DNA from: Eledone cirrhosa | Lineage: Eukaryota | Direction: 5' to 3' | DNA: 64,000 bases | Assembly: GCA_964016885.1 (NCBI GenBank) | Contig: OZ024749.1 | Location: 27,714,001-27,778,000 of the forward strand | Shown here: in pieces, positions 905-61,962 of the stretch | Layout: each line of letters starts with the position of its first letter | Numbering within the stretch: the stretch's first letter is position 1 | Translations under genes and position numbers: made by a program | The notes under the pieces: generated by a model | Database searches by the model: none | Seen by the model: only the letters and a program-made list of their open reading frames with translations | Told to the model about the DNA's origin: nothing

Positions 905-3900
905 CTAAAGAATTGGCAGGAAATATTGATAATATTAACATTAGCAACATTTAACCCTTTTCTTACCATAATTCCAATATTGCTATGATTTTGAAATAAT
1001 TTCGAAAATAATCAAGAATTTGAGAGATTAAGTAAAGTAATTAGCTTTTCATTATTAACCCTTTAGCATTTAAACTGGTCATATCTGGCAGAATTCTCTC
1101 ACCTCTTTCTGTTCAAACCAACCGTACCCTGCCTCTCATACCTACATTAAGGTACTGTTCTCAAAATAAATAATATCAAAATCGATATTATGTGAAATAA
1201 AGCCTTAACCATGAAAATACAATAATAAATATAGAGTAATGTAAATGATAAAGGGTTAAATTTGAATGTATTTAGTAATATTTCTTTTATAAAGTTTCTT
1301 ATTTTTATGCTGACGTTTGGAACATAAAATGTTGATGTAAGATAAATATAAACACTTTAAAATAATCAAATTTTATTACAGAACCAAGGGCAGTTTCAGA
1401 TAGTATGGCATCAAAAGGGTTAATCATTTTTAGAAATGATAAGCTTAATATATGTGTGTAACTAGCTTAGAATAAGTTGTATACCTGGTAAGAGGGTGAT
1501 TAAAAGGGTTGGCCATAAAATATTCCTCAGAAAGGACCCAGAGGTGTGTATAAAACCTGTGATGGGGCCCACAAGGCTGACCCTGTTTTAGCAAAGAAAA
1601 TGGTCTTAAAATGTTTTGTTGCTGCATTGTAGCTTAGAAAAACTAATATATGTGTGTAGCTAATAAAACAATATATATGTGTGTGTGAGTGTAGCTAATA
1701 AATCCATATATATGTATGTCGATGACACAACAAAAAGCACCCAGTCCACACTGTAAGGTGGTCGTGAAGGAGACACGGTAAAAAGGCTCGCAGTCCACAC
1801 TGTAAAGGTGGTTGGTGTTAGGAAGGGCATCCAGCCATAGAAGACCTGCCAGAGACACTTGCGTACAAGCGAGACACGGTCTCCCGACCATTCCTGCATC
1901 ACATGGAACAAAACCGTCAAACCCATGCTAGCGTAGGTTGGACGTTAAACGATGATGATGATGATATGTGTGTGTGAGTTAGATAATAAAAAGTAATATA
2001 TATAAAGATGAAAGTGTAGCTTATACAAACTAATATGTGTGTGTATGTAGAGCTAATAATATGCATGTGTGTGCAGCTGATAAGACTAATATTATATCTT
2101 AACTACACACACACAAATATATTGGTCTGTGATGGCCTGGCCACCCTTTGCTAGCAGGGAAAACGAATGTTAAATGATATGTATGTTTGGCTAGTTTGGT
2201 GGTGATGGTCATGGAAGGAAGGAACTGACTACTTACCTTGATCCTCTCCGTTTCAATGAGGTATTGAGCCATACTTTTGATTAGAATTTCAAAAAAGAAC
2301 CAGGAATGTTTAAGGAAACGGCTGACCACCGACTGATCAGCATTTATGGGGCGAAGTAGAACTGTGAGGTTTTTGGCCAATTCTTCATGGACTGTCTTCA
2401 CTTTAGTTCCTTTAGGGGAGGGCAGGGTCTTAAAAACATACTGTAAAATATAAAGACAGGGTCATTTTAGTTACCTTAGAGGTGGACAGGGTTTTAAAGA
2501 CAGACATACTGTTAACATATATAAAGACAGAGACACTTTAGTTCCTTTGTAGAAGGGCAGGGTCTTAAAAACATATTGTAATATATATAGAGAAAGACAG
2601 GATCACTTCAGTTACCTTAGGGGTGGACAGGGTCTTAACATATTGTAATATATCAAAAGAAAGACAAGGTCATTTTAGTTACTCTAAAGGTGGACATGGT
2701 CTTAAAAACATGCTGCAATATATATAGAGAAAGACAGGGTCATTTTAGTTACTTTAGGGGTAGACAGGATCTTAAAGACATACTGTTATATATAGAAACA
2801 AGGTGGAGAGAGAGAGTATGTTGATTAACAATATCATATAACATACCACTGTAAAATATACATACACTACACCATACGACAGCACTATTATACATCACCA
2901 CTACACCACCACTACTACTCTATAATATATCACAATACACTACACCATGAAGATACCACCACTACACACCACACACTAGACCACCACTATACACCACACC
3001 ACTACCATGCAATACAACAGTGTACACCTCACCATACCACACCAGAGCCCCACTACATACCATACTACAGCACCACTCCACTACTATGCAATACAATACT
3101 GTACACCTCACCAGAGCCCCACTACATACCATACTACAGCACCACTCCACACCACCACCACTATACAATACAACAGTGTACCCCTCACCATACCACCACA
3201 CCAGAGCCCTACTACATACCATACTACAGCACCACTCCACACCATCACCACTACAACAGTGTACACCTCACCATACCACACCAGAGCCCCACTACATACC
3301 ATACTACAGCACCACTCCACACCATCACCACTACAACAGTGTACACCTCACCATACCACACCAGAGCCCCACTACATACCATACTACAGCACCACTCCAC
3401 ACCACCACCACTATACAATACAACAGTGTACACCTCACCATACCACACCAGAGCCCCACTACATACCATACTACAGCACCACTCCACACCATCACCACTA
3501 CAACAGTGTACACCTCACCATACCACACCAGAGCCCCACTACATACCATACTACAGCACCACTCCACACCACCACCACTATACAATACAACAGTGTACCC
3601 CTCACCATACCACCACACCAGAGCCCCACTACATACCATACTACAGCACCACTCCACACCACCACCACTATACAATACAACAGTGTACCCCTCACCATAC
3701 CACCACACCAGAGCCCCACTACATACCATACTACAGCACCACTCCACACCACCACCACTATACAATACAACAGTGTACCCCTCACCATACCACCACACCA
3801 GAGCCCCACTACATACCATACTACAGCACCACTCCACACCACCACCACCACCACTACAACAGTGTACACCTCACCATACCACACCAGAGCCCCACTACAT

Positions 3901-6900
3901 ACCATACTACAGCACCACTCCACACCACCACCACTATACAATACAACAGTGTACACCTCACCATACCACACCAGAGCCCCACTACATACCATACTACAGC
4001 ACCACTCCACACCACCACCACTGTACAATACAACAGTGTACACCTCACCATACCACCACTACAGACCATACTACAGCACCACTCCACACCACCACCACTA
4101 CAACAGTGTACACCTCACCATACCACACCAGAGCCCTACTACATACCATACTACAGCACCACTCCACACCACCACCACTATACAATACAACAGTGTACAC
4201 CTCACCATACCACCTCACCATACCACCACTACATACCATACTACAGCACCACTCCACACCACCACCACTATACAATACAACAGTGTACACCTCACCATAC
4301 CACCACACCAGAGCCCTACTACATACCATACTACAGCACCACTCCACACCACCACCACTACAACAGTGTACACCTCACCATACCACACCAGAGCCCCACT
4401 ACATACCATACTACAGCACCACTCCACACCATCACCACTACAACAGTGTACACCTCACCATACCACACCAGAGCCCTACTACAGACCATACTACAGCACC
4501 ACTCCACACCACCACCACTATACAATACAACAGTGTACACCTCACCATACCACACCAGAGCCCCACTACATACCATACTACAGCACCACTCCACACCACC
4601 ACCACTACAACAGTGTACACCTCACCATACCACCACACCAGAGCACCACTACATACCATACTACAGCACCACTCCACACCACCACCACTACAACAGTGTA
4701 CACCTCACCATACCACACCAGAGCCCCACTACATACCATACTACAGCACCACTCCACACCATCACCACTACAACAGTGTACACCTCACCATACCACACCA
4801 GAGCCCTACTACAGACCATACTACAGCACCACTCCACACCACCACCACTATACAATACAACAGTGTACACCTCACCATACCACACCAGAGCCCCACTACA
4901 TACCATACTACAGCACCACTCCACACCACCACCACTACAACAGTGTACACCTCACCATACCACACCAGAGCCCCACTACATACCATACTACAGCACCACT
5001 CCACACCACCACCACTACAACAGTGTACACCTCACCATACCACACCAGAGCCCCACTCCACACCACTACCACTATACAATACAACAGTGTACCCCTCACC
5101 ATACCACCACACCAGAGCCCCACTACATACCATACTACAGCACCACTCCACACCACCACCACTGTACAATACAACAGTGTACACCTCACCATACCACCAC
5201 TACAGACCATACTACAGCACCACTCCACACCACCACCACTATACAATACAACAGTGTACACCTCACCATACCACACCAGAGCCCCACTACATACCATACT
5301 ACAGCACCACTCCACACCACCACCACTACAACAGTGTACACCTCACCATACCACACCAGAGCCCCACTACATACCATACTACAGCACCACTCCACACCAC
5401 TACCACTATACAATACAACAGTGTACACCTCACCATACCACACCAGAGCCCCACTACATACCATACTACAGCACCACTCCACACCACTACCACTATACAA
5501 TACAACAGTGTACCCCTCACCATACCACCACACCAGAGCCCTACTACATACCATACTACAGCACCACTCCACACCACCACCACTATACAATACAACAGTG
5601 TACACCTCACCATACCACACCAGAGCCCCACTACATACCATACTACAGCACCACTCCACACCACCACCACTACAACAGTGTACACCTCACCATACCACAC
5701 CAGAGCCCCACTACATACCATACTACAGCACCACTCCACACCACCACCACTATACAATACAACAGTGTACCCCTCACCATACCACACCAGAGCCCCACTA
5801 CATACCATACTACAGCACCACTCCACACCACCACCACTATACAATACAACAGTGTACACCTCACCATACCACCACACCAGAGCCCCACTACAGACCATAC
5901 TACAGCACCACTCCACACCACCACCACTGTACAATACAACAGTGTACACCTCACCATACCACACCAGAGCCCCACTACATACCATACTACAGCACCACTC
6001 CACACCACCACCACTACAACAGTGTACACCTCACCATACCACACCAGAGCCCCACTACATACCATACTACAGCACCACTCCACACCACCACCACTACAAC
6101 AGTGTACACCTCACCATACCACCACACCAGAGCCCCACTACAGACCATACTACAGCACCACTCCACACAACCACCACTATACAATACAACAGTGTACACC
6201 TCACCATACCACCACACCAGAGCCCCACTACATACCATACTACAGCACCACTCCACACCACTACCACTGTACAATACAACAGTGTACACCTCACCATACC
6301 ACCACTACATACCATACTACAGCACCACTCCACACCACTACCACTATACAATACAACAGTGTACCCCTCACCATACCACCACACCAGAGCCCTACTACAT
6401 ACCATACTACAGCACCACTCCACACCACCACCACTACAACAGTGTACACCTCACCATACCACACCAGAGCCCCACTACATACCATACTACAGCACCACTC
6501 CACACCACTACCACTATACAATACAACAGTGTACCCCTCACCATACCACACCAGAGCCCCACTACATACCATACTACAGCACCACTCCACACCACTACCA
6601 CTATACAATACAACAGTGTACCCCTCACCATACCACCACTACATACCATACTACAGCACCACTCCACACCACTACCACTATACAATACAACAGTGTACCC
6701 CTCACCATACCACACCAGAGCCCCACTACATACCATACTACAGCACCACTCCACACCACTACCACTATACAATACAACAGTGTACCCCTCACCATACCAC
6801 CACACCAGAGCCCTACTACATACCATACTACAGCACCACTCCACACCACCACCACTATACAATACAACAGTGTACACCTCACCATACCACACCAGAGCCC

Positions 6901-28100: not shown

Positions 28101-31100
28101 ACGACTCTACCTGGAGTGGCTCTCTGATTCGTAATCAAGAAAGGTAAACAAACAAATCTCATCCCCCCAAAGGCAAAACTTCTTACCCTCAATGGAATAG
28201 CTCCATCATCATCCGAATCCTTCAATTCTATACAACATGCTATATTTCTGGCCTGGAATAGAAAACATGGACATGGTTTATTATGTTGTTGTTGAGAAGC
28301 CCCTGTTAAACGCTTCCCTGCCCCACACCTTGTCATATTTATGGCACAGCGGTAGTCATTGTAACAGTTTAGAAGGAGCCTATAATCTTAACACTTTTCC
28401 AACCATATTTCTAATGAAATACAGTCTATGTTAATTGATTAACCCTTTAGCATTTAAACCGCCCATATCCAGCCAGAATTCTCTCACCTCTTTGTCTTGA
28501 AACCAGCTGTAATCAGCTGCTCAAAGTGATGTTAATGTATTGTTCTTAAAATAAAGCATATCAAAATCTCGTAGATTCAATATTATGTGAGATAATTATG
28601 TAAGGTAAAACCTTTATTGTGAAAATATAATAGTAAATATAGAGTAATGTAAATAAAACATTTTGAGTGATTTACTATAATTAATAATTACTTCATTACT
28701 AAGATAGTAACTTAACATATAGTCCCTAGAGAAAATTATGTTAGAAAATTTAGATTTAAATGGGAACACGTTAACCATTTCATGACAGTATTTTTAATGA
28801 TATACACACAATCTTAATTAATTAATGCAGAATTTGGATGGGTTTTACTGGAAGTTAGAAAAAAACACAGACAGTTTATCTAACCAAAACTCCAGGACTT
28901 ACAAATATGTACAAGATACAGAAAATTACGCTACTAGATACTTGCACATACCCAATACACACAAAGCTGTGCACCGTAATGCAGTGAAAATAAGACAAAT
29001 GATAATAATAATAATAAAGAAGTGACCAACCTTTGTAAAAGTCTTTTGGCAATCGTATTTAAGGCTGATTGGGTAGACAAAAAGTAAGTTTTGGTAGTTA
29101 GTAAATGGAGAGCTTAATGCTTTATCTTCTTGGAATTCTTCAATTTCAATGTGTATGTTACCAACTGGAGGTTCTGGGAATGGTTGCAGAGGGAGCAAAG
29201 AAGGACTTACACAATCTGAAATATAAACATTAAAATCCTCACCATCGTTATCAGAATTAGCATCATCGTCACTATTTAACATCCATTTTTCCATGCTAGC
29301 ATAGGTTAGATAAGTTGTCCTGACATTGTGAGACAAATCAGATCAGGTGACCAAGTCTTGCTCATACAGAACTGTTTCTGGCTTGCTTTCTATGACTAGA
29401 TACCCTTCCTACTGCCAACGACAATTACAATGTGGACTCTGGGTGCTTTTTATCATGGCATGAAAATGATTAACTGACAGGTTGGACTGGATACATTTTC
29501 ATTGTGTCACCAGCATGATCACCTTACAGGGTGGACCAAGTGTCATCTCACCAATATGACATTGTTATGTGTGTTTTTTTTTCTTCATGTTGGTATGCGC
29601 TGGACAAGATATTTTGGGGCAGTTTTCTACAGTCTCATACCCGATCTTCATGCTAATTCTTGTATATTTTTCTATTTTTAACCCTTTTGTGACTGTATTT
29701 CTAATGAAATATGCTATTGCAGTTAATTAATGAAGAATTTTAAGGGATTTACTGACATGATATCTACTTACATTTTCACTAGAAAAAGACTTTTGGATTC
29801 TGGAATTTCAGATAAATAAAGGATTCTTAACATATATCTAGTTAAAACAGATGATGCTGATGATATATGGTGTTTTTTATTTTTTATTTAACAGTAAAAA
29901 AATAACCAAATACTTCTACTTACTTGGAACTGGACTCTCTATTGGTTCTATAAGAATCTTCAAATGTCCTGGAATTACCTGCCATTTACTCTGTTTTTCA
30001 GGTCTGTAAACAAAAACATTAAAATACAACTAAGTAATGGAACTATATATATATATATGAAAAGTAAACAGAAATAACAAACAAACATCACAGTACAATG
30101 AAAAAATATATTAGTTTAAGGAAAAGAGTCTAATGTTTTGGACACTAGTCCTTCATCGGAAGATAGAATGAGAAATAAAAGATGAAATAGAAAGATAGAG
30201 AGATGTGATCTGTCAGTCATTTTGGAGAAAAAAAAAGAATATATATATACACACACACATATACACACACATACACAGCTATACCTCACCTTACATAGTT
30301 AATTGGTTTCAGAAGTCAAAACTTAACCCTTTAGCATTTACATTACTCTATATTTACTATTGTATTTTCACAGTAAAGGCTTTATCTCACATAATTACCT
30401 CACATAATATCAAATCTATGAGATTTTGATATTATTTATTTTGAGAACAATACCATAATGTAGGTATGAGAGGCAGGTTAAGTCAAAATGCAACCACTAA
30501 TAGTCTTTAATTATTTTATGCGTATATTTAAGTATTTATTTAAATGTCATTTTATATGTTTTTATTGTTTTTTAGTGTTTTCTTTTATAGTTCAATATTT
30601 TTGTCAGACCAACGTAAGGTTGAGTCAATTGACACATGAGGTTTATTTTTGCCATAAAGAAAAACTGCCATAACATCGAAAATGATGAAACTTGAAACAA
30701 CGTAAGCTGAGGTATACCTATATCAAGTAAATATGTTTTGAAACAGCGAGCGAGTTTGAAATTAGAAATAGAAGTTTTCGCCGTATTTTTTGACTAAAGA
30801 ATTTTTTTTAGCCTGATAGTGGGGTTTAGAACCTTCGAAGAAATGGAAAAAGATACGTCAATCTCATCTTTTTCCATTTTTTAGAGGGTTCTAAATTCTA
30901 CTATCAGGCTAAAAAAATTTCTTTAGTCAAAAAATACGGTGAAACCTTCTCTCTATATATATACACACACACCGACCTTACCCAATTACACCTCTCAAAG
31001 GCAATGACACACGACCGTGACCTCTGGCGTCACGCAGTAATACAGAGTACCCGACCCACCATGGGTACAAGCTGAAGCATATAGACAATATGCCCCCACC

Positions 31101-35391: not shown

Positions 35392-35772
35392 ACTCACATT
35401 CTGTAGATTCTCTATACACTCATCATCAGAAACATTGGCCTGTAACTTCAGTTGAAATTCTTGGAGTCTTAAAAGGAATCGGTCTCCAAGAGCTTTAGGA
35501 AAGACATCAATAACATCTTTGTTGGTATAAACCTCTTCTTCCTCTCGACCATATCCAAATCTCTGCAAATATAGAAGAACAATGACATAAATATTAAAAT
35601 ATATTGGTTCTTATATGATATGATTAGTAAAACACACACCTTCTAAAACCATATTATCTGGTTCATGACAAACCACAAACTACTACGCCACCATATAAAA
35701 ATTCTCTGTTGAAGCTTTCTAAACAACTTCCCTGCTTTGTGTAAACCTCATAGCTATGTTTAAGAAACTAAA

Positions 35773-35819
<47 letters not shown>

Positions 35820-36141
35820 AAGCAGACTTTGTTTATAAACGACTAGTGAATTTGAAAATTAAGTTGTAACATGTGCATATGTCGCATTTTACTAAATAGA
35901 ATTAGTGTATTAGTTGGGATTTTAAAAGACCCTCTGAATGGAAAAAAGGATGAGTATTGATGCACATGGGATTCGAACCTACATCTTTGGTTTGCCGGGC
36001 CAATGTGATACCATTACACCAACACACCAAAGAAGCTTTATAACCATAGCAGGTATATATATATGTAAATAAATAGGGAGACACAAAGCAGGATTTGTTT
36101 ACAAATGGCTAACGAATTTGAAAATTAGGTAGTAACATGTG

Positions 36142-36181
<40 letters not shown>

Positions 36182-36577
36182 TTCTATTTAAATTGTTGGG
36201 ATACAACAAGCAAATATTTTTATAACTGATATAAAGCACTCAACAAATTATTGGAGTAAAAATACGATATATTAACAAATGGAAACTATATTTATAAAAC
36301 CATATTTATTTCATTATACATATTTCAAGGACACCAAGTTAAATTATGGTGTGCTTTCATCAGATAAAATATAATATAGAGCAGTTTTATAACTATCCGG
36401 GAGCTTCCAACAGAAATGGTCGCATTCTTTAAGGGTATGTCAATATTTATTTATAAAACTGCTCTATATTATATTTTATCTGATGAAAGCACACCATAAT
36501 TTAACTTGGTGTCCTTGAAATATGTATAATGAAATAAATATGGTTTTATAAATATAGTTTCCATTTGTTAATATATC

Positions 36578-36613
<36 letters not shown>

Positions 36614-37440
36614 GACGTAAAATAAGAAAATTTAAAAAATTAAAAATTAACTTACTAAAATGTTCACTCCAATTGCGTTACGTAACTATATTTATTCCCT
36701 TACAGAAACTAATTAGTTGGAGTGAAAATTTTAGTAAGTAAGTTAATTTTTAATATTTTCTTATTTTACGTCTTTCATATAATTGTTCTGCATCCCCCTG
36801 CATAGAACCACAAAGGTACTAAGACATAAGATATATATTTGCTAGCATGGGTATACATCTGTATACATATGTTGGTAGATATACTAATTCTCTATATTTA
36901 TCTCCAAATTATTTGTTGAGCAAAACTTGCCAAAATTTACTGCTATGGTTCATGGTAGTAGTTAGGCTCTTGTCGTAATACCACCCCACTCCTCATTGAT
37001 TAACCTCAGTGTCACGTGATTGATTCTTTAGAATTTGCCACTGATCAAGTAGGCAGTGAATTTTTTCAGTGCCCTGGAATTTAGTCCCCACTAGCTTTAT
37101 TCCATCCACTGAATTATTATTTTTATATGGGTTCCTAGTGTCCGCGCATTGCCTGGGAACTTAGCTGAGAATAGACTCCCTGATGACGTAAGGACTTCTC
37201 TATAGTTGCATTACGTAACTATATTTATTCCCTTACAGAAACTAATTAGTTGGAGTGAAAATTTTAGTAAGTAAGTTAATTTTAGTAAGTAAGTTAATTT
37301 TTAATTTTTAAAATTTTCTTATTTTACGTCTTTCATATAATTGTTCTGCACCCCCCCTGCATAGAACCACAAAGGTACTAAGACATAACATATATATTTG
37401 CTAGCATGGGTATACATCTGTATACATATGTTGGTAGATA

Positions 37441-39740: not shown

Positions 39741-42700
39741 CGATATTAACAAATGGAAACGATATTTATAAAACCATATTTATTTCATTATACATATTTC
39801 AAGTTAAGTTATGGTGTGCTTTCATCAGATAAAATATAATATAGATCAGTTTTATAAATAAATATTGACATACCCTTAAAGAATGCAACCATTACTGTTG
39901 GAAGCTCCCGGATAGTGGAGTTGTAGCTTAATTATATTATTAGTATTGGATAAGCCATTGGGTTATGGAGAAAGATAGAGAAGGAAAGAGAGGGAAATAT
40001 AGAGAGAGAGAGGAGACAGAGAAAAGGAGAGAGAACGAAAACCTCTAAGTCATATCTTGTTGAGTTAACTTAACAATTGAGATGAAATGAATAAATAAAA
40101 TTAGAAATGTTAATAAAATTAGAAATGTTAATAATCATGAATGGAATATACATATATAATATGAGAAATTTAACCATTGTTTAAATATGATTAGATGTTT
40201 AGTTAATCAGTTAAATATTGAGATCAATATATAAAAAAATTGGGATCTATATATTAAGAAAACCATATATTATTAAAGATCTAAATATTATATAACACAT
40301 ATACACACGCAAAAATACATACATATAAATATATATACACACTTATAAAATACATATATATATCTAACTACGTATATAATATATACATACAAAACATAAA
40401 GGATTCTTTAATTTAATTTAAGATATAGGAATCTTATAAACTGTTATAATTGTTAAGATATTAAACAAAATTTATCAAATTGGATATTGCTTGGGTTATT
40501 AGTGGTATTTTGGTTAGGTTTTAAATTTCTATTATTAATTCTATTAATATTTTGCGCTAAATTTTTGGTGGAAGAATAAGTTAATTTTATAGTATGTCTA
40601 TTAAAAATTGAGTAATATCTATGTGTTCTAGGGAAGCATTTGTCAAGAGCTTTAAAGAATAGTTTAGCAATAGGGGTTTTAATATTTAATGAGAAAGGAG
40701 GAGCGAACCATAATATGTTCCTAGTTCTATTTCTTTTACTGCTTTCGGAATTAATGTAAGGTTTTCTATTATAGTTGTTAAAATTGTTACCATAGTTAAA
40801 ATTGTTACGATTATGGTTGGTTGTTATATTATTAATATAATAATAATATAACAACCAACCATAATAACCCAAGCAATATCCAATTTGATAAATGTAACTG
40901 TAGAAATAAATCTAACTGTCCGTTAAATAACAATTGCTTAGCTAAAAATATAGTATATAATTGTAATGTAAAAACTAATTTAAATTCATTTAATTATGTG
41001 GGATCCACTTCCACAGAGTTTAAATCCCGCTTCAATAATCATAAAAATTCTTTTACAGATCCAAACAAAAAATCTTCAACTTCTCTATCTAGCCTATTAT
41101 GGGATCTCAAACTAAAGAACGTTGAATATTCGTTGATTTGGAATATTTTTTCAAAAGCTACTCCTTTTAACTCCTCTTCAGAAAATTATAATCTTTGTAT
41201 AGAGGAAATATTCTTTATATTAAAGACCAAAAATTCCCTGAACTTAATAAATAATTTATTCAGTTGCTGTAGACAGATTAAACTCAACGTTTAAATATAA
41301 ATTTAAAATGTAATATATAATTAATTAATTAATTTTATTAATATATTGAACCTGTCGATAAATCATTAGATTCCTTCATCTTTTTTGACTGATTATACAC
41401 TCAAGTAAAAATAACTTTTCTTCCTAAATATAAATAAATAAAAATAAACTATTCTAGAGAAATATACTGAGAGCTCTTGAAAGGAGAAAATATTTCTTAT
41501 ATTTTTATTGTTATTGTCTGATAGCTGCTTCTATTTTCGAAAGTTTATCCTTTCAAAGTTTCTGTTTGTTTCTCTTATGGATATAATATTAAGTTAAATA
41601 TAAGTAGAAAATTTCTATACTAAATCTATTAAACATACTATTATTTTGAAATTATAACTTTTATAATGAAATTATAATATTTTAAAATTATATTGTTTTT
41701 AAAGTTATATTGTTTATAATTATATTTCCAAATCGTAATATAATTCTTTTGTATTTTAGGTACTCAATTATACTATGTACTGTATTTATATATACTTCTC
41801 TCTATATGTGTGTATTGACATACATGTACATATGTTTTATGCATATATGTCTATCTGTGTGTGTATATATATACGTGCTGCGTATCTACCTATTTGTGAG
41901 GGTACATGTATGTATGTATATGTGGGAATTGTGTATGTACATGTGCATGTATATCCATACAATTCGATTGCACTTATGTATAGTGATTATCCCAAGATTC
42001 GTGACAGATATACATATAATAACAGCCATAAATACATAACAGGTAATCTTATAAAACTTATATAAAAAAATTTTGTTTAATATCTTAACAATTCTAACAG
42101 TTTATAAGATTCCTATATCTTAAATTAAATTAAAGAATCCTTTATGTTTTGTATGTATATATTATATACGTAGTTAGATATATATATGTATTTTTGCGTG
42201 TGTATACATGTTATATAATATTTAGATCTTTAATAATATATGGATTTCTTAATATATAGATCCCAATTTTTTTATATATTGATCTCAATATTTAACTGAT
42301 TAACTAAACATCTAATCATATTTAAACAATGGTTAAATTTCTCATATTATATATGTATATTCCATTCATGATTATTAACATTTCTAATTTTATTTATTCA
42401 TTTCATCTCAATTGTTAAGTTAACTCAACAAGATATGACTTAGAGGTTTTCGTTCTCTCTCATTTTCTCTGTCTCCTCTCTCTCTCTATGTTGTTCTGTT
42501 CTTTCTCTCTTTCCTTCTCTATCTTTCTCCGTAACCCAATGGCTTATCCAATACTAATAATATAATTAAGCTACAACTCCACTATCCGGGAGCTTCCAAC
42601 AGTAATGGTTGCATTCTTTAAGGGTATGTCAATATTTATTTATAAAACTGATCTATATTATATTTTATCTGATGAAAGCACACCATAACTTAATTTGGTG

Positions 42701-42848
42701 TCCTTGAAATATGTATAATGAAATAAATATGGTTTTATAAATATAGTTTCCATTTGTTAATATCGTATTTTTACTCCAAATATTTGTTGAGTGCTTTATA
42801 TCAGTTATAAAAATATTTGCTTGTTGTATCCCAACAATTTAAATAGAA

Positions 42849-42884
<36 letters not shown>

Positions 42885-43160
42885 CATACACACACACACA
42901 TATATCGACAGTCAATCGACAAGATCCCAGACCTCATTCACTTAATGAGTGGGGTTGACTGAAGAAACAATCTTTCCATTGGACTTTCCAATTGCTAATA
43001 CTGTCTGTCGGTTGAAAATCCAAGCAGAAGGAGCAATATGAAATAAAGTGTCTTGCTCAAGGACATAACGCACCGCCCGGTCTGGGAACCAAAATCTCAA
43101 CCTCACGATTGCGAATCCAGTTCTCTAACCACTCACACGCGCGTGTGCGTGCGTGTGGTG

Positions 43161-43191
<31 letters not shown>

Positions 43192-44163
43192 TGGTGTGTA
43201 GTGTGTGTGTGTGTCTTTGTATATCATCATCATCATCATCATTTTAAGTCCGCTTTTCCCTGCTTGCAAGAGTGGGACGGGAACTGATTCTGGCTTGATT
43301 TCTACAGCTGGATGCCCTTCCTAACACCAACCTCATTTACAGTGAGTGCTGGGTGCTTTTTTGCCGCGGCACCTCCACAACCACTTTGCAGTGGAATGAT
43401 AGGGACCCCAGTCCTATCATCTCATTTCTACAGCTGAGTAAACTGGAGTAATGTGAAATAAAGTGTCTTGCTTAAGGAAACAACACATCACCCGGTCTGA
43501 GAATTGAACTCACAACCTTTCGATTGCAAGCCCAATGCTCTAACCACTAAGCCATGTGCCTCCATATATATATATGCATAAATGTGTATATCAATACACG
43601 AGTGTCTATATATATATATACATGCATGTATATTTGTATATATATTATATATATGTGTGTGTGTGTATCTGTATATATGTATGAGTGTGCATTTGTGTGT
43701 TGATACACAAGTGTATATATATATATGCCTACATTTATGTCTCTGTATGTGTGTAGATATGATATATGTGTCACAGTATGTGTATTGATACCAGAGTGTA
43801 TATATGCATACATTTATGTCTTTGTATGTATGAGTATGTAGATATGAGTGTCACAATATTTGTGTGTATGTATGTGTCTGTATCTGTGTTGATACAAGAG
43901 TGTGTATATATATGCATACATATATGTCTCTGTATCTATGAATGTGTATGTAGATATGTATGTGCCTGTCGGCATGTGTATTGATACAGGAGTGTGTATA
44001 TTTACATACATCTATGCCTCTATGTATGTATGTGTCTTTACCCAATTTTCTAAGCTATTATTTATAACCATCGACTGTTGTGACAGTTATTTCCTGCTTT
44101 GGAGGTTTCTGTCTTTAAAAAAATCACAAATTGCCTCAATTTATAAATTTTACACACACACAC

Positions 44164-47300: not shown

Positions 47301-48605
47301 AGTGGTTGACATTTTACCAAACAAAGGGTTGGGAGGACCCCCAGTTGTGTCAAAGATTTGAAACCTCTCCTGTGCACTTGGTGGAACTTGAGATGGTACA
47401 TAAGCAAGGCACAGATACCTGGCCTGTCTGGGAGATCAGTAGCACCACTTCTATACTTACCTGGTCTATATAGTCCTGTTCAACCCTTGCTAGCAGGGAA
47501 AATGGATGTTAAAATGATGACAATTTTCCTGTGCACTCAGTGGAATGTGCGACCGCACATAAATGAGATACAAATCCCTGGCCTATCTGGGAGATCAGTG
47601 GCTCAGCTTCTGTACTGACTTGGTCTATGTAGACCTGTCCAACCCATGCTAGCAGGGAAAGTAGACGTTGAAATGATGATGATGGTATTTGTAATATTAC
47701 AAAATGTTTCTTTTATAAAATTATATTGCAAGATTTTAATTTAAGTAGGAAGCCATTAAAATCGGCATGGTTTTGTTTCATAGAAATAAAGACAATTTCG
47801 GGTGGGTCGATGCCAAAAGGGTTAAGGGTGGTGAACTGGCAAAATCCTGTTACAGAAGTGTGATGTTAATGTACATGAATGATGGAGCATGGATGAGCTG
47901 AGAGAAAAATATGGGGCATAAGAGGGACAAGAGACAGTGGTGTAATAAAGACTGCACTGGTACAGACATGTGATGTGTGTAGGTGATGATTGTTGGGTGA
48001 AGAAGAGGAAGACAAAGGAAGACTACCTAGGCAGAAGTGGTCAGAGTTGATATCAAAAGCCCCTGACCCCTCACAGAGAAGATGACAAAGTAATGCAACA
48101 ATCAAGTGGAGACAGGCTGTGTAGGAAAAGACACATCCAACCCATGCAGGCTTGGGAAAAACGGACATAAAAAAGATGATGATGATGACGATGATAGTAC
48201 ATTGGACAAAATCCTTTGCGGCATTTATTCCACTAGGAGGAGGCAGGAGGGTTAGGAAGAGGCATGAGGGGAAGTAGAAAATGTACTTACTTTCATGTCA
48301 GGATATAAAGCAAACAGATTGTGTCGTTCTTCCTGCCTTGCTTTAGCCAGTGATGTGTCAGTTTCTCTGGAATACTAAACAGAAGGGAAAAAAATCAGTG
48401 GATACATATATACACGTCTATGTGTATACACACACACACATACATAGATAGATAGATACACAAACATATACATACACACACAGACACATATATATATACA
48501 TAAATATGCACAATGTGTGAGTTTATATATATATATATATACCATGTCTGGAATTTGCCATTGAAACAGCAAGCAAGACCTCACCCATCAGGCCCTGACC
48601 CTCAA

Positions 48606-48654
<49 letters not shown>

Positions 48655-49341
48655 AAAAAATGGGGAGAAGAATACTGCAGGTTGCACATGGATAACATGT
48701 TATAAAATGAGTCCCTCATCAGTGATTTGCCAACGATCATAGATATTTCATTGCATTAAAAATCATATACCTCACGTTGGTGCAATAATAACTAAATTAA
48801 GTTATTAGGACAATTAAAACGCGTAAAGCGAGTGAGACAAGTAACAACAAAGAGGAAATATTATGTTTAGACAACAGAACATGTATATAAGATACAGGCG
48901 TCCTGTCGAATATATGACAGTATTTAATTAGCTCAATGCTTGAAAGCAGAGCCATTATATGGAACAAAAACAAAGAGCGCTTACATCATCAATTAATCTT
49001 TATTTGCTGACCAGTGTTTCGTCCTTGCATAATTGCAGGACTCATCAGAGCGTTATAAAGAGGAATTAGATCAATAGTATAAACTCTACCGACCTATATC
49101 ACAAGAACGATCCATATGGAGCACAGAGGACTAAGAAGAGTGGGGTGTTTGGACGAACACCCCACTCTTCTTAGTCCTCTGTGCTACATATGGATTGTTC
49201 TTGTGAAATAGGTCGGTAGAGTTTATACTATTGATCTAATTCCTCTTTATAACGCTCTGATGAGTCCTGCAATTATGCAAGGACGAAACACTGTCAGCAA
49301 ATAAAGATTAATTGATGATGTAAGCGCTCTTTGTTTTTGTT

Positions 49342-49379
<38 letters not shown>

Positions 49380-49389
49380 ATAAAAACGA

Positions 49390-49458
<69 letters not shown>

Positions 49459-49966
49459 TACACATGCACACTATATATATATTGCCAAAAAGTGCATGTG
49501 GCTTATTTAACAAACCATATTCTTTGCTTTAACTTAGCAGCACATACTAACACACGCACACAGACATTCACACTCACGACGAACAAATATTTGAGTATAC
49601 ATGATAGGCTGGTCATGCCACTATTCAGTCTAAATGGATATCTGTATTGTAAACAAATAGATGTTATTGATATATATCTCTTGTGTGAAATGACTGCTTA
49701 ACCAGAAGTCAATTCTACTACAAAACAAACTAGCTCTGCAATGATACACTCTCACATGAATTTATATATACTATATATATATACACACACACACACTTCT
49801 ACAAAACATATATGATACACAGTTTTGTCACTTTATATATACTATATATACATACTTTATACTTCTACAAAGCATATATACATAGTTATGTGACTTTATA
49901 TATACTATATATACACACTTTACATATCTACAAAACATATTTAAAACAGTTTTGTTTCTTTATATA

Positions 49967-50006
<40 letters not shown>

Positions 50007-51343
50007 TTTACACTTCTACCAAACACATGTATTTCTCTATTGGCCAGTTGTAAAGCCTATTGTTACATAAATTATCAGCCAATCAAGAGTGGTGATTTAA
50101 AAGCCCACATGTTAATATGTTTGTTCTAGGCAGAGGTTATAGAAATTCATCAATATAATATTTATTGTTCTGAGACTTTGCTAGACTATATTGGCTATGG
50201 CTGGGATTATTGCAGTATTTTATTTTTGGTTGTACACAACTGTGAGCGAGTGATACAAAACTATGTACAAAAAGCAACATGTGACTTTTATAGAAGCCAA
50301 AGACTGAAGCCAGAATATTATAAACTCAAAAAATGCACGATATATGTGCTCTCTTCACAACAATATGTAATATATATGTGTGTGTGTGTGTATTAAAGCA
50401 AATGTATGTTTGTTGATATATATCTCTCTGCCTCTCTTCACATCCATTGCTCCCTCCTCTCACTCTCCCCAGCTCCCATCATGCCCACACATGCTGTTTT
50501 CCTTTCTAACCTCCTTACCAACAACCAGAATGTAGCTGCCTATCACTATCTTGCTCTCCCTTCAGTGAAATGTTAATACATGAGAGAGAGAGAGATAGAG
50601 AGAGACTAAGTAGAGTACTTACTTTAACCAGCTCAGGGTGCATACTGTTTTCAAGACCCAATCTGTGATTGTCTGACTTGGTAGGTGTTGGACATTCTTC
50701 TGGAATGAAGGCAAAGGCAGTGGTAAATAAACAGGAATTATTGTTTAATAACAAAAACAATGGCAACTATCATTATGTACAACTATCATTATAACAACAA
50801 CAACAACCACAGTAATGTTAACTACAACAACAACTACAACAGTATCATGTTGGTTTTGTAAAACAAACAAGACAAGGCAGTATTGATAACTATATGTTGT
50901 ATAGCACAGAAAAACTGATCATTTGTACAGGTTGTTCAGTAAATCAACTGTGTACCTTGATATCTTGTGTGTCTTTTATACATATGAGACGTCCTAACAT
51001 AATATTTGCTGAATCTTGTCTGTCCATCCATCTACACCCATACACACACATATATATATATATGTATATATAATAAAGAGTGGGAATGATGTATCAAAAC
51101 AATGTCATACACCAATTAACTATATATATATATAAACATATATATATACATATACATATACATACACATATGAAAAAATAATAATCATCATAGTTCAATA
51201 CATTAATACTACTATGACTGGAAATTTACAAATTCGATTCAACTCTGAACTGTCTTTCGCCAATCTTGATGTGGATAAAATTACATTAAAGCTTTAAATA
51301 TCTGATTGACTTATACAGTTGTATCATCAACTCATATAATCTA

Positions 51344-60010: not shown

Positions 60011-60042
<32 letters not shown>

Positions 60043-61962
60043 ATATATAAGATCAAAAGATGGTTAAAAGAGTTCCATGTATTTTATTATGCGCATTTCA
60101 AAAACAAATATCATCATGCAATAACATTTGTGTTTTCATCAGCTGATGAAAACACAAATGTTATTGCATGATGATATTTGTTTTTTAAATGCGCATAATA
60201 AAATACATGGAACTCTTTTAACCATCTTTTGATCTTATATATTATGTATACTCCAGTCCTACAAACTGTAGAGTGCTTCTTATCCGATATCTGCATTGCT
60301 TTATTGTACTACAATAAAAATCACCTCCTACATACACACACACAGAAGGGAAGAGACAGAGAAATGGATTGGTGGAGGAAACATAGACAAACAGATGGAA
60401 ATATTCACCTCATCCTTGTCATCTGTGTCAACATCGATTTCATACACCTGTTCAGGTAAACTCTCCAGTTTCTTTTTGCTAAAAAGTACAAAAAAACAAA
60501 ACAAAAAATAAACAGAAACCATAAAAGATGACACTAAAAATATTTCATTGTTGTTTTACTGGTTCTACACAGCAGGTAGTGAGATATCAATGTTATACTA
60601 TTGTGAGGTATACTATATATATATATTGTACATTTTATATCATATTGGGATACTATATATTGAAATATGAATGTTATATGAGATATATCATATGTCATAT
60701 CATTAAGATATATCATATTAAGATATATTCTATATGTTACATCATATTAAGATATATCAGATATATTATATCATATTTAGATATATCATATATTCTATTA
60801 TCCTACTGAGATATTTCAGAAATGTTATACCATATTAAGATATATCATATATGTTATATGATATTAAGATATAATAGCAATGTTACATATGCCATCAACA
60901 TTTAACATCTGCCTTCCCTGCTAGCAAGAGTTGGATGGGTCACCACAGACCTAGTCAGTACTTAGAGCGACAGACCTCATAGATATCGAGATATGTCAAA
61001 TATATATCAATATAGGGAAGAAAGGACACTCAAGTCCTGACAGAACCTCCTAATTGCTGGTGACATGAAGAATGCACCCAGTCCATGCTGTAAAGTGGTT
61101 GGTGATAAGATATGTTTCTTTATTAGCCACAGGGGCACAAAAGAAGGGGACAAATACAAAGGGGGAAGTTTACATACAATAAAAACGTGTAAAATGCTAT
61201 CACAAAAGCAATTTAAAAATTAATCGATTTTCCCCAATAGGGGGAGACATTTCATATGGGTAACACATACCCCCGAAAATATGTGCAACCCTCATCTCCA
61301 GGAGTACGAAGAGTTTGTACTCCTTTCCTTTCCTTCTCTTTTTCTTCAACCTACAGGCTGATATAGAGAGAAGGCCCATTCACTTGGGTCATTCTCGCCA
61401 CTTTCACCCACCTTTCATAAAACTTGCTGGGGTACAGCACCTCTCTCTCCATCCTGATTCTTCTTCCAAAGTGGTATTTGAAAAAAAGAATCAGTTGTTG
61501 GCCGGAGAGAAAGGTGTGATAAGATAGGCACCCAGACAGTAAAAACATGCCAAATATTTTAAAAAGCACAACCTATACTATACATACTAATAGTATGTCT
61601 GACCCATGCCAGCAAGGAAGGTAAGTAAATGGATGTTAATATGATGTTAATGATTATTATATCCTCATCATTTTTATATATCCACTTTTCTATGTTAGCA
61701 TGGGTTGGACAGGAAGATTTGAGGCAATGTTTTACAGCTAGATGCCCTTCCTGATACCAACACTTTTAGTTGCTTTTTACGACATGTAGAGATACAGTGG
61801 TACCTATACTAAAAACTGGTACACACACACAGACATAAAACACATACACACATACGTGTGTGTATAAATAATTGAGAAGCAGCATTTGGAGTTACTTAGG
61901 TAATTGCTGATAACTTGTGTGTGTGTGTGCATGTGTGAGTGTATATGTGTGTGTGTGTGTGT

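What the first reader, a model, noticed from the sequence alone, without database searches (positions are those of the whole stretch)
48961..49343. Compact 385-bp hairpin element with two intact GUC hammerheads
Both arms keep the full core (CUGAUGA, stem II gucc-ugca/ugca-ggac, GAAAC, GUC cleavage triplet, 3-bp stem I). The arms differ at only a few positions, which argues for real sequence rather than a read foldback and for fairly recent origin. The minus-strand ribozyme (49006-49051) is in the DOCK pre-mRNA sense, about 630 nt upstream of exon 48291-48374. A rod-like RNA with ribozymes of both polarities is superficially viroid- or retrozyme-like (inference only).
Basis: partly seen in the sequence, partly recalled or inferred. 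Interest (0 to 1): 0.7.

Follow-up and report, generated by a model that had tools for sequence, protein, structure and literature searches.

The report
Head-to-head Penelope retrotransposon stub
The hairpin is real but ordinary: two cut-short ends of a known kind of jumping gene (a Penelope-like retrotransposon) sit back to back in an intron, likely made in one insertion event, and each carries that element's usual ribozyme motif, which is predicted to stay locked in the hairpin rather than cut.

Summary
The hairpin and both hammerhead (HHR) cores are real. Each arm is the 5'-truncated 3' end of a Penelope-like element (PLE). Its parent, found in this genome, has RT and GIY-YIG motifs of Hydra-clade type. 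The hairpin junction occurs once in the genome, while the HHR core has 38 exact copies, so the hairpin is not a mobile unit. In either transcript the antisense arm is made first, and the HHR fold is predicted to cost 65-76 kcal/mol. The intron-sense HHR also has a private insertion in its dimer palindrome. Nothing viroid-like or retrozyme-like is supported. Inverted pLTRs with one-sided tails and opposite-strand HHR pairs are published, and this scan has reported such stubs on other DNA, in this genome too. One useful extra: 8 of 8 head-to-head pairs join a tailed end to an untailed end (p about 3e-4), which fits priming at two fixed sites.

The parts
48859..49343 (.). Whole head-to-head PLE insertion, 485 bp, at the edge of a (TA)n tract
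   Evidence: maps to parent unit positions 1-103, 4366-4558 (reverse) and 4376-4558 (forward)
48859..48960 (-). 103-nt one-sided tail = start of the next tandem unit (5' leader before the ORF)
   Evidence: most of the 27 tailed loci stop at this same point
48931..48952 (-). Bulged hairpin GCUC-[stem-loop]-NN-GAGC just past the short end; a twin lies just past the tail end in the parent; candidate RT start signal (inferred)
   Evidence: L133, L161, L042 and window; lead from earlier scan notes
48961..49156 (-). Left arm: 5'-truncated pLTR / 3' end of the PLE
49006..49051 (-). Type I HHR in host pre-mRNA sense; C17 at 49009; private 1-nt insertion at 49011/49012 breaks the ACA-C-UGU palindrome of stem III
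49150..49157 (.). Hairpin loop and junction of the two 5' truncations (1-nt overlap at 49156); unique in the genome
49157..49343 (+). Right arm: 5'-truncated pLTR ending at the short (untailed) end
49254..49298 (+). Type I HHR of family-typical sequence; C17 at 49295; stem III palindrome ACA-C-UGU
49345..49375 (.). (TA)n target microsatellite
   Evidence: sequence
48652..48858 (-). 3' end of a different, likely younger (TA)n-ending repeat that abuts the tail end; not part of the hairpin element
   Evidence: 13 of 40 scored matches (one is the window) fully identical over 199 nt, 1201 candidates; boundaries
48291..48374 (-). Downstream exon of the DOCK9-like host gene (intron 48375-50622 holds the insertion)

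Best explanation
The hairpin is a single-copy, head-to-head pair of 5'-truncated 3' ends of a Penelope-like retrotransposon with Hydra-clade motifs, likely made in one insertion when reverse transcription was primed from both cut strands of a (TA)n target, and its two hammerheads are passengers predicted not to fold. Shown: both arms map to the parent's 3' end; one arm carries the 103-nt tail and the other stops at the short end; the junction is unique; (TA)n follows the short end. Inferred: (1) the GIY-YIG endonuclease cuts both strands in (TA)n; (2) one primer starts at the tail site and the other at the short site 103 nt upstream, both downstream of the GUC site, so the template was uncleaved there; (3) both cDNAs stopped after about 190 nt of pLTR and were end-joined with a 1-nt overlap; (4) the copy has decayed neutrally since. 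Confidence is about 0.95 for the identity, 0.9 for inert ribozymes and 0.55 for two-site priming as the route.
For: Parent L133: pLTR with HHR, then ORF, then 1.8-kb 3' region with HHR, then (TA)n. Motifs RWR, DKT, YRDD, CxCx5C, GIY-YIG, CxxC and CxH. 41 matches at 96-100% from 40 of 818 candidates scored. Junction 1 match, HHR core 38 exact matches. 8 of 8 head-to-head pairs among 27 tailed and 84 short ends are tail+short, p=3.4e-4. 14 of 18 head-to-head junctions in held loci are resolved and all are tail+short. 4 of 7 inverted partners in 30 short-end loci are the tail alone, a non-overlapping twin-priming geometry. HHR fold penalty 65-76 kcal/mol, also at co-transcriptional prefixes. Core mutated at 2.8% vs 3.7% elsewhere, in a sample biased to intact cores. 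Papers: inverted pLTR and one-sided tail (PMC8557442, PMC3846280); both strands cut and extended, two RT start sites (PMC11167929); opposite-strand HHR pairs 100-700 bp apart (PMC4209133).
Against: The two truncation points lie within 10 nt of each other, which 1.6% of random pairs do. A second case (L147, 1 nt) and short foldbacks at 5' junctions (L003, L023) fit snap-back self-priming. In 10 of the 14 resolved insertions the arms overlap, so simple one-RNA twin priming is not enough; a second RNA or re-use of the template is needed. Pfam gave only a weak GIY-YIG hit below its cut-off (E 0.004) and no RT hit. No tree was built. The tailed list includes the window's own pair and at least one internal pLTR (L161). 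Folding energies ignore proteins and editing.
Confidence: 0.88

Rival explanations
1. Same element and same inert outcome, but the inverted arm arose by self-priming (snap-back of the first cDNA, or of an antisense template), with the second end resolved at the ATATA stretch that matches the (TA)n target.
For: Arms start within 10 nt of each other. 71 palindromes of 90 nt or more in 874 kb of partly redundant loci. 37- and 53-nt foldbacks at other 5' junctions. PMC3846280 (passages read) proposes self-priming for palindromic junctions.
Against: Only 1-2 bp could prime the fold here. It does not explain tail-only inversions (4 of 7) or arms whose truncation points differ by hundreds of nt.
Confidence: 0.3
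2. The intronic hairpin has a host role as a 190-bp double-stranded RNA: an ADAR substrate that affects DOCK splicing or editing, or an editing-gated ribozyme.
For: It lies in pre-mRNA 485 nt or more from the 3' splice site and folds at -335 kcal/mol. Heavy A-to-I editing in coleoid cephalopods is recalled knowledge. Earlier scan notes report edited PLE hairpins in this genome (not checked here).
Against: Young, no sign of selection. The sense HHR has a broken dimer palindrome and no same-strand partner. Such hairpins are common, with two more HHR-type ones in this window. The differences between the arms show no A-to-G pattern. Being edited (plausible) is not the same as having a function.
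Confidence: 0.04
3. A viroid-like or retrozyme-like self-replicating rod RNA with ribozymes in both polarities.
For: Rod fold with one HHR core per strand.
Against: Junction single-copy; no tandem units; both HHRs are the same sequence copied in reverse; both are predicted to be sequestered; parent is a coding PLE.
Confidence: 0.01
4. Long-read foldback or assembly artefact.
For: Near-perfect palindrome with a short loop.
Against: Arms carry private differences (3 substitutions and 1 indel in 188 columns); the two outer ends are the family's two distinct natural ends; a short-read contig spans the loop at single-copy depth (1 of 4 runs).
Confidence: 0.01

Closest known systems
Hydra clade of C-terminal EN+ Penelope-like elements (Craig et al. 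2021, PMC8557442; includes Hydra-1_Obim from Octopus bimaculoides and Penelope-13_HM)
   Same: RW[K/R], DKT, CxCx5C, CxxC and CxH motifs, no CCHH, (TA)n target, type I HHR with palindromic stem III and 1-nt loop. Penelope-13_HM is listed with a 5'-truncated inverted copy and an HHR on both strands (supplement).
   Different: Unit is 4.56 kb with a 1.8-kb 3' region, against generally under 3 kb. HHR sequence differs from Hydra-1_oBim. Tail is 103 nt against the 30-40 bp given for PLEs.
Inverted-pLTR insertions with optional tail (Adineta Pen2a, PMC3846280; Fig. 2 of PMC8557442)
   Same: Head-to-head inverted 5'-truncated copy, tail on one side only.
   Different: Here both halves are short stubs truncated at nearly the same point, giving a near-perfect hairpin; no target duplication can be read in (TA)n.
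PLE minimal or variant hammerheads (Cervera and de la Pena 2014, PMC4209133)
   Same: Long stem II with bulge, short stem I, palindromic stem III suited to a dimer; dual motifs 100-700 bp apart on opposite strands were already noted.
   Different: Different sequence; activity untested here.
Non-LTR retrozymes (bioRxiv 10.64898/2026.07.22.740005, part 1 read) and hammerhead viroids (recalled)
   Same: Type I HHR; retrozymes are proposed to derive from PLE pLTRs.
   Different: No tandem same-strand units, no evidence of circular RNA, single copy; the two polarities are an exact inverted duplicate.

Membership tests
EN+ Penelope-like element insertion | Parent ORF with RT and C-terminal GIY-YIG | tested here: met
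   YRDD and NIVY...YIG motifs in 4 or more copies; Pfam GIY-YIG weak, below cut-off; no Pfam RT hit; ORFs are frameshifted
EN+ Penelope-like element insertion | Partial tandem forming pLTRs with HHR | tested here: met
   L133 has HHR-bearing direct repeats on both sides of the ORF
EN+ Penelope-like element insertion | Inverted 5'-truncated copy and one-sided tail | tested here: met
Hydra clade | RWK, DKT, CxCx5C, CxxC/CxH motifs; no CCHH; GxKF/Y not conserved | tested here: met
   (RWR in place of RWK); absence of CCHH read from the translations
Hydra clade | Insertion into (TA)n; canonical HHR | tested here: met
   HHR style matches File S2
Hydra clade | Typical length under 3 kb (descriptive, not diagnostic) | tested here: not met
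   unit 4560 nt
Hydra clade | Phylogenetic placement of the RT | not tested
   no tree built
Type I hammerhead ribozyme | Core nucleotides and stems I-III | tested here: met
   stem III only 2 bp as a monomer; Rfam gave no hit
Type I hammerhead ribozyme | Fold accessible in its transcript | tested here: not met
   predicted penalty 65-76 kcal/mol in the hairpin, about 5 kcal/mol in an isolated arm
Type I hammerhead ribozyme | Self-cleavage | not testable with these tools
   needs an in vitro assay
Non-LTR retrozyme | Two or more tandem same-strand HHR units | tested here: not met
   one HHR per strand here; no tandem array of the hairpin
Viroid-like RNA | Circular RNA replicating in both polarities | not testable with these tools
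   no raw RNA reads available
MITE or other mobile hairpin unit | Many copies sharing both ends and the centre | tested here: not met
   junction pattern, up to 2 mismatches: 1 match

The most novel reading that the evidence does not exclude
The locus is one datum in a natural record of how Penelope-like elements make inverted insertions. The RT primes from both target strands at two fixed RNA sites 103 nt apart, each marked by a copy of a small bulged hairpin (GCUC-stem-NN-GAGC). Every inverted insertion therefore joins one tailed and one untailed end, and tail-only inversions are true twin-priming products on one RNA. This family would be a direct test system for the open question of PLE integration.
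Probability: 0.5. Interest if true: 0.55.

Novelty: new member of a known kind. Interest (0 to 1): 0.17.

Why it matters
As a locus it matters little: it is a young, likely dead stub, and it shows that paired opposite-strand hammerheads in such genomes should be read first as PLE insertion scars. The family-level rule (always tail plus short end; tail-only inversions; twin hairpins past both ends) bears on how PLEs integrate, which PMC8557442 calls still undefined. This scan had already noted that mechanism in other families, so this is added support from one more family, not a new idea.

Tried and rejected
Rfam scan: no hammerhead hit. Non-autonomous 1.5-kb element with a fixed 5' end (suggested): rejected, the family runs on upstream into an ORF. 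A two-part element with the neighbouring PLE of L031: rejected, only 1 of 30 loci of that family (L031 itself) had our family beside it. PDB search with the 28-aa exon: no hit. Sequencing runs: no RNA holder listed; runs X2-X4 laid nothing on the junction, which proves nothing; expression, editing and RNA ends remain untested. Protein Atlas gave no result. Naiad origin of the left-flank repeat: not shown, the nearby RT fragment in L205 lies outside the shared region. Paper searches: 'Penelope-like, palindrome, hairpin, truncated, hammerhead' gave 0 papers; 'Penelope, twin priming, inverted, retrotransposon' gave 2 unrelated listings. These two searches of an open-access library do not show absence from print. 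Earlier-findings look-ups by sequence found nothing.

Full report
Observation. The inverted repeat is at the stated place: arms 48956-49149 and 49156-49348, 98% complementary, 6 nt apart. It folds at -340 and -335 kcal/mol, and 0 of 100 shuffles match this. The arms differ by 3 substitutions and 1 indel in 188 columns. Each arm has a type I hammerhead core facing outward, with C17 at 49295 (plus) and 49009 (minus). Rfam reported no hammerhead among 111 matches at E<=1. A 66-nt contig of run X1 crosses the loop with no mismatch at depth 13.8, like the flank (13.7); the other 3 of 4 runs laid nothing there, and X1 may be the assembly's own sample.

Host. A minus-strand frame at 52399-52629 matches the DOCK9 PH domain (E 8e-9). 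A 6387-nt contig of run X4 (kind not on record) covers exactly 48291-48374, and its flanking letters map to 50623 and 35544-35562. The element therefore lies in a 2.2-kb intron, 48375-50622. The animal is likely an octopus: this is inferred from the 3.0-Gb genome, a recalled repeat motif and earlier scan notes, and was not tested.

Family. The arm finds 41 matches at 96-100% from 40 of 818 candidates scored. In the 30 loci fetched, the window's is the only abutting hairpin of this family. The 42-nt HHR core has 38 exact matches; the junction has 1 match with up to 2 mismatches. Walking upstream led to L133: (TA)n, truncated pLTR with HHR, leader, ATG, a frameshifted ORF, a 1.8-kb 3' region with HHR, then (TA)n; the unit is 4560 nt. 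The ORF shows RWR, DKT, YRDD, CxCx5C, GIY-YIG, CxxC and CxH. These are the Hydra-clade marks in section 11 of PMC8557442. Pfam gave only a weak GIY-YIG hit and no RT hit, and no tree was built. The supplement of that paper lists an octopus Hydra family with a different HHR, Hydra HHRs with the same palindromic stem III, and Penelope-13_HM with an inverted copy and an HHR on each strand.

True extent. Copies end at two fixed points: a short end 48 nt past the GUC site (84 matches) and a tailed end 103 nt further (27 matches for the run-on into the tail). The tail is the start of the next tandem unit. The window's left arm is tailed (to 48859) and its right arm is short (to 49343). Left of the tail sits the 3' end of another repeat whose copies are 99-100% identical; it likely inserted later into the (TA)n.

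A rule for inverted copies. Among the 111 listed ends, 8 of 8 head-to-head pairs within 10 kb join a tailed and a short end; independent pairing gives p=3.4e-4. Without the window's own pair this is about 1e-3 by arithmetic. The same list has one tail-to-tail and two direct pairs. In all loci held, 14 of 18 distinct head-to-head junctions could be resolved at both ends, all tail+short; 4 were unresolved. In the first 30 of 84 short-end loci, 7 had an inverted partner, and 4 of these were the tail alone. In the parent a bulged hairpin, GCUC-stem-NN-GAGC, follows each end by a few bases; this was a lead from earlier scan notes, checked here in three run-on copies. PMC11167929 (parts 1-2 of 4 read) shows in vitro that a PLE cuts and extends both strands, starts at two internal RNA sites that define the tail, and does not need HHR cleavage. 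Two-site priming is my inference from these. Against it: the arms here start within 10 nt of each other (1.6% of random pairs), and short foldbacks occur at other junctions. PMC3846280 (passages read) prefers self-priming.

Ribozymes. Alone, an arm needs about 5 kcal/mol to reach the monomer HHR fold and has an extended stem I. In the full insertion the cost is 75-76 kcal/mol, and 65-68 at the moment the HHR is just made, because the antisense arm comes first in both directions. Stem III is the palindrome ACA-C-UGU, the dimer-type design in PMC4209133 (parts 1-2 of 4 read), where a single minimal motif showed no cleavage and opposite-strand pairs 100-700 bp apart were already noted. The intron-sense copy has an extra base there, seen in 1 of 87 copies. 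Core positions differ in 32 of 1131 letters (2.8%) against 490 of 13395 (3.7%) elsewhere, in a sample partly chosen for intact cores. The window's arms differ at 1 of 132 outer positions against a median of 7 between copies. Youth, not selection, explains the intact look.

How common. Of 71 palindromes of 90 nt or more in 874 kb of partly redundant sequence, 8 have a loose CTGA.GA...GAAA motif facing outward in both arms, including this one and 36262-36581 in the same window (stems not checked in that scan). A look-up in earlier scan notes found 40 findings with these words in at least 19 genomes.

Verdict. An ordinary, young PLE insertion stub; a new family member of a known kind. The viroid or retrozyme reading is not supported. 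Expression, editing and cleavage were not tested: no RNA holder was listed. Other papers seen: bioRxiv 10.64898/2026.07.22.740005 (part 1 of 5) and PMC13282606 (passages; no mention of hammerheads, palindromes or Hydra). Supplements other than part 2 and one term search of PMC8557442 were not read; the sequence files there could show whether this family is already curated.

Noticed in passing
window 36146-36581: Second hairpin with outward HHR-type motifs in both arms, from another family, also with a one-sided extension that a copy at 42637-42892 shares.
   Followed up: partly
window 60035-60250: 98% foldback with no loop, centred exactly at CTGATGA of another HHR-type family; one arm has lost GAAA.
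   Followed up: partly
window 48652-48858; L201-L215: Very young (TA)n-ending repeat with about 530-nt tandem units and 1201 candidates; carries CTGATGA in host sense with no ordinary HHR around it; parent not identified.
   Followed up: partly
L031 2241-5145: Near full-length PLE of another clade type (Penelope/Poseidon-like by its endonuclease motif, recalled), 98% identical 5' ends in 40 scored of 1810 candidates, often with tandem or inverted 3' ends.
   Followed up: partly
L133 and L132 ORF, between RT and endonuclease: Asparagine-rich stretch of about 130 aa inside the ORF, recalling the N-rich inserts of Adineta Penelopes in PMC3846280.
   Followed up: no
window 35958-36028 (-) and 43497-43554 (-): tRNA-like Rfam matches (45 and 31 bits), possibly SINE heads.
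   Followed up: no
window 30770-30950 and 36605-36781: Older foldbacks (86% and 80%) without an HHR motif.
   Followed up: no
L033 about 2650-5270: 874-aa cysteine-rich repeat ORF next to a family copy.
   Followed up: no
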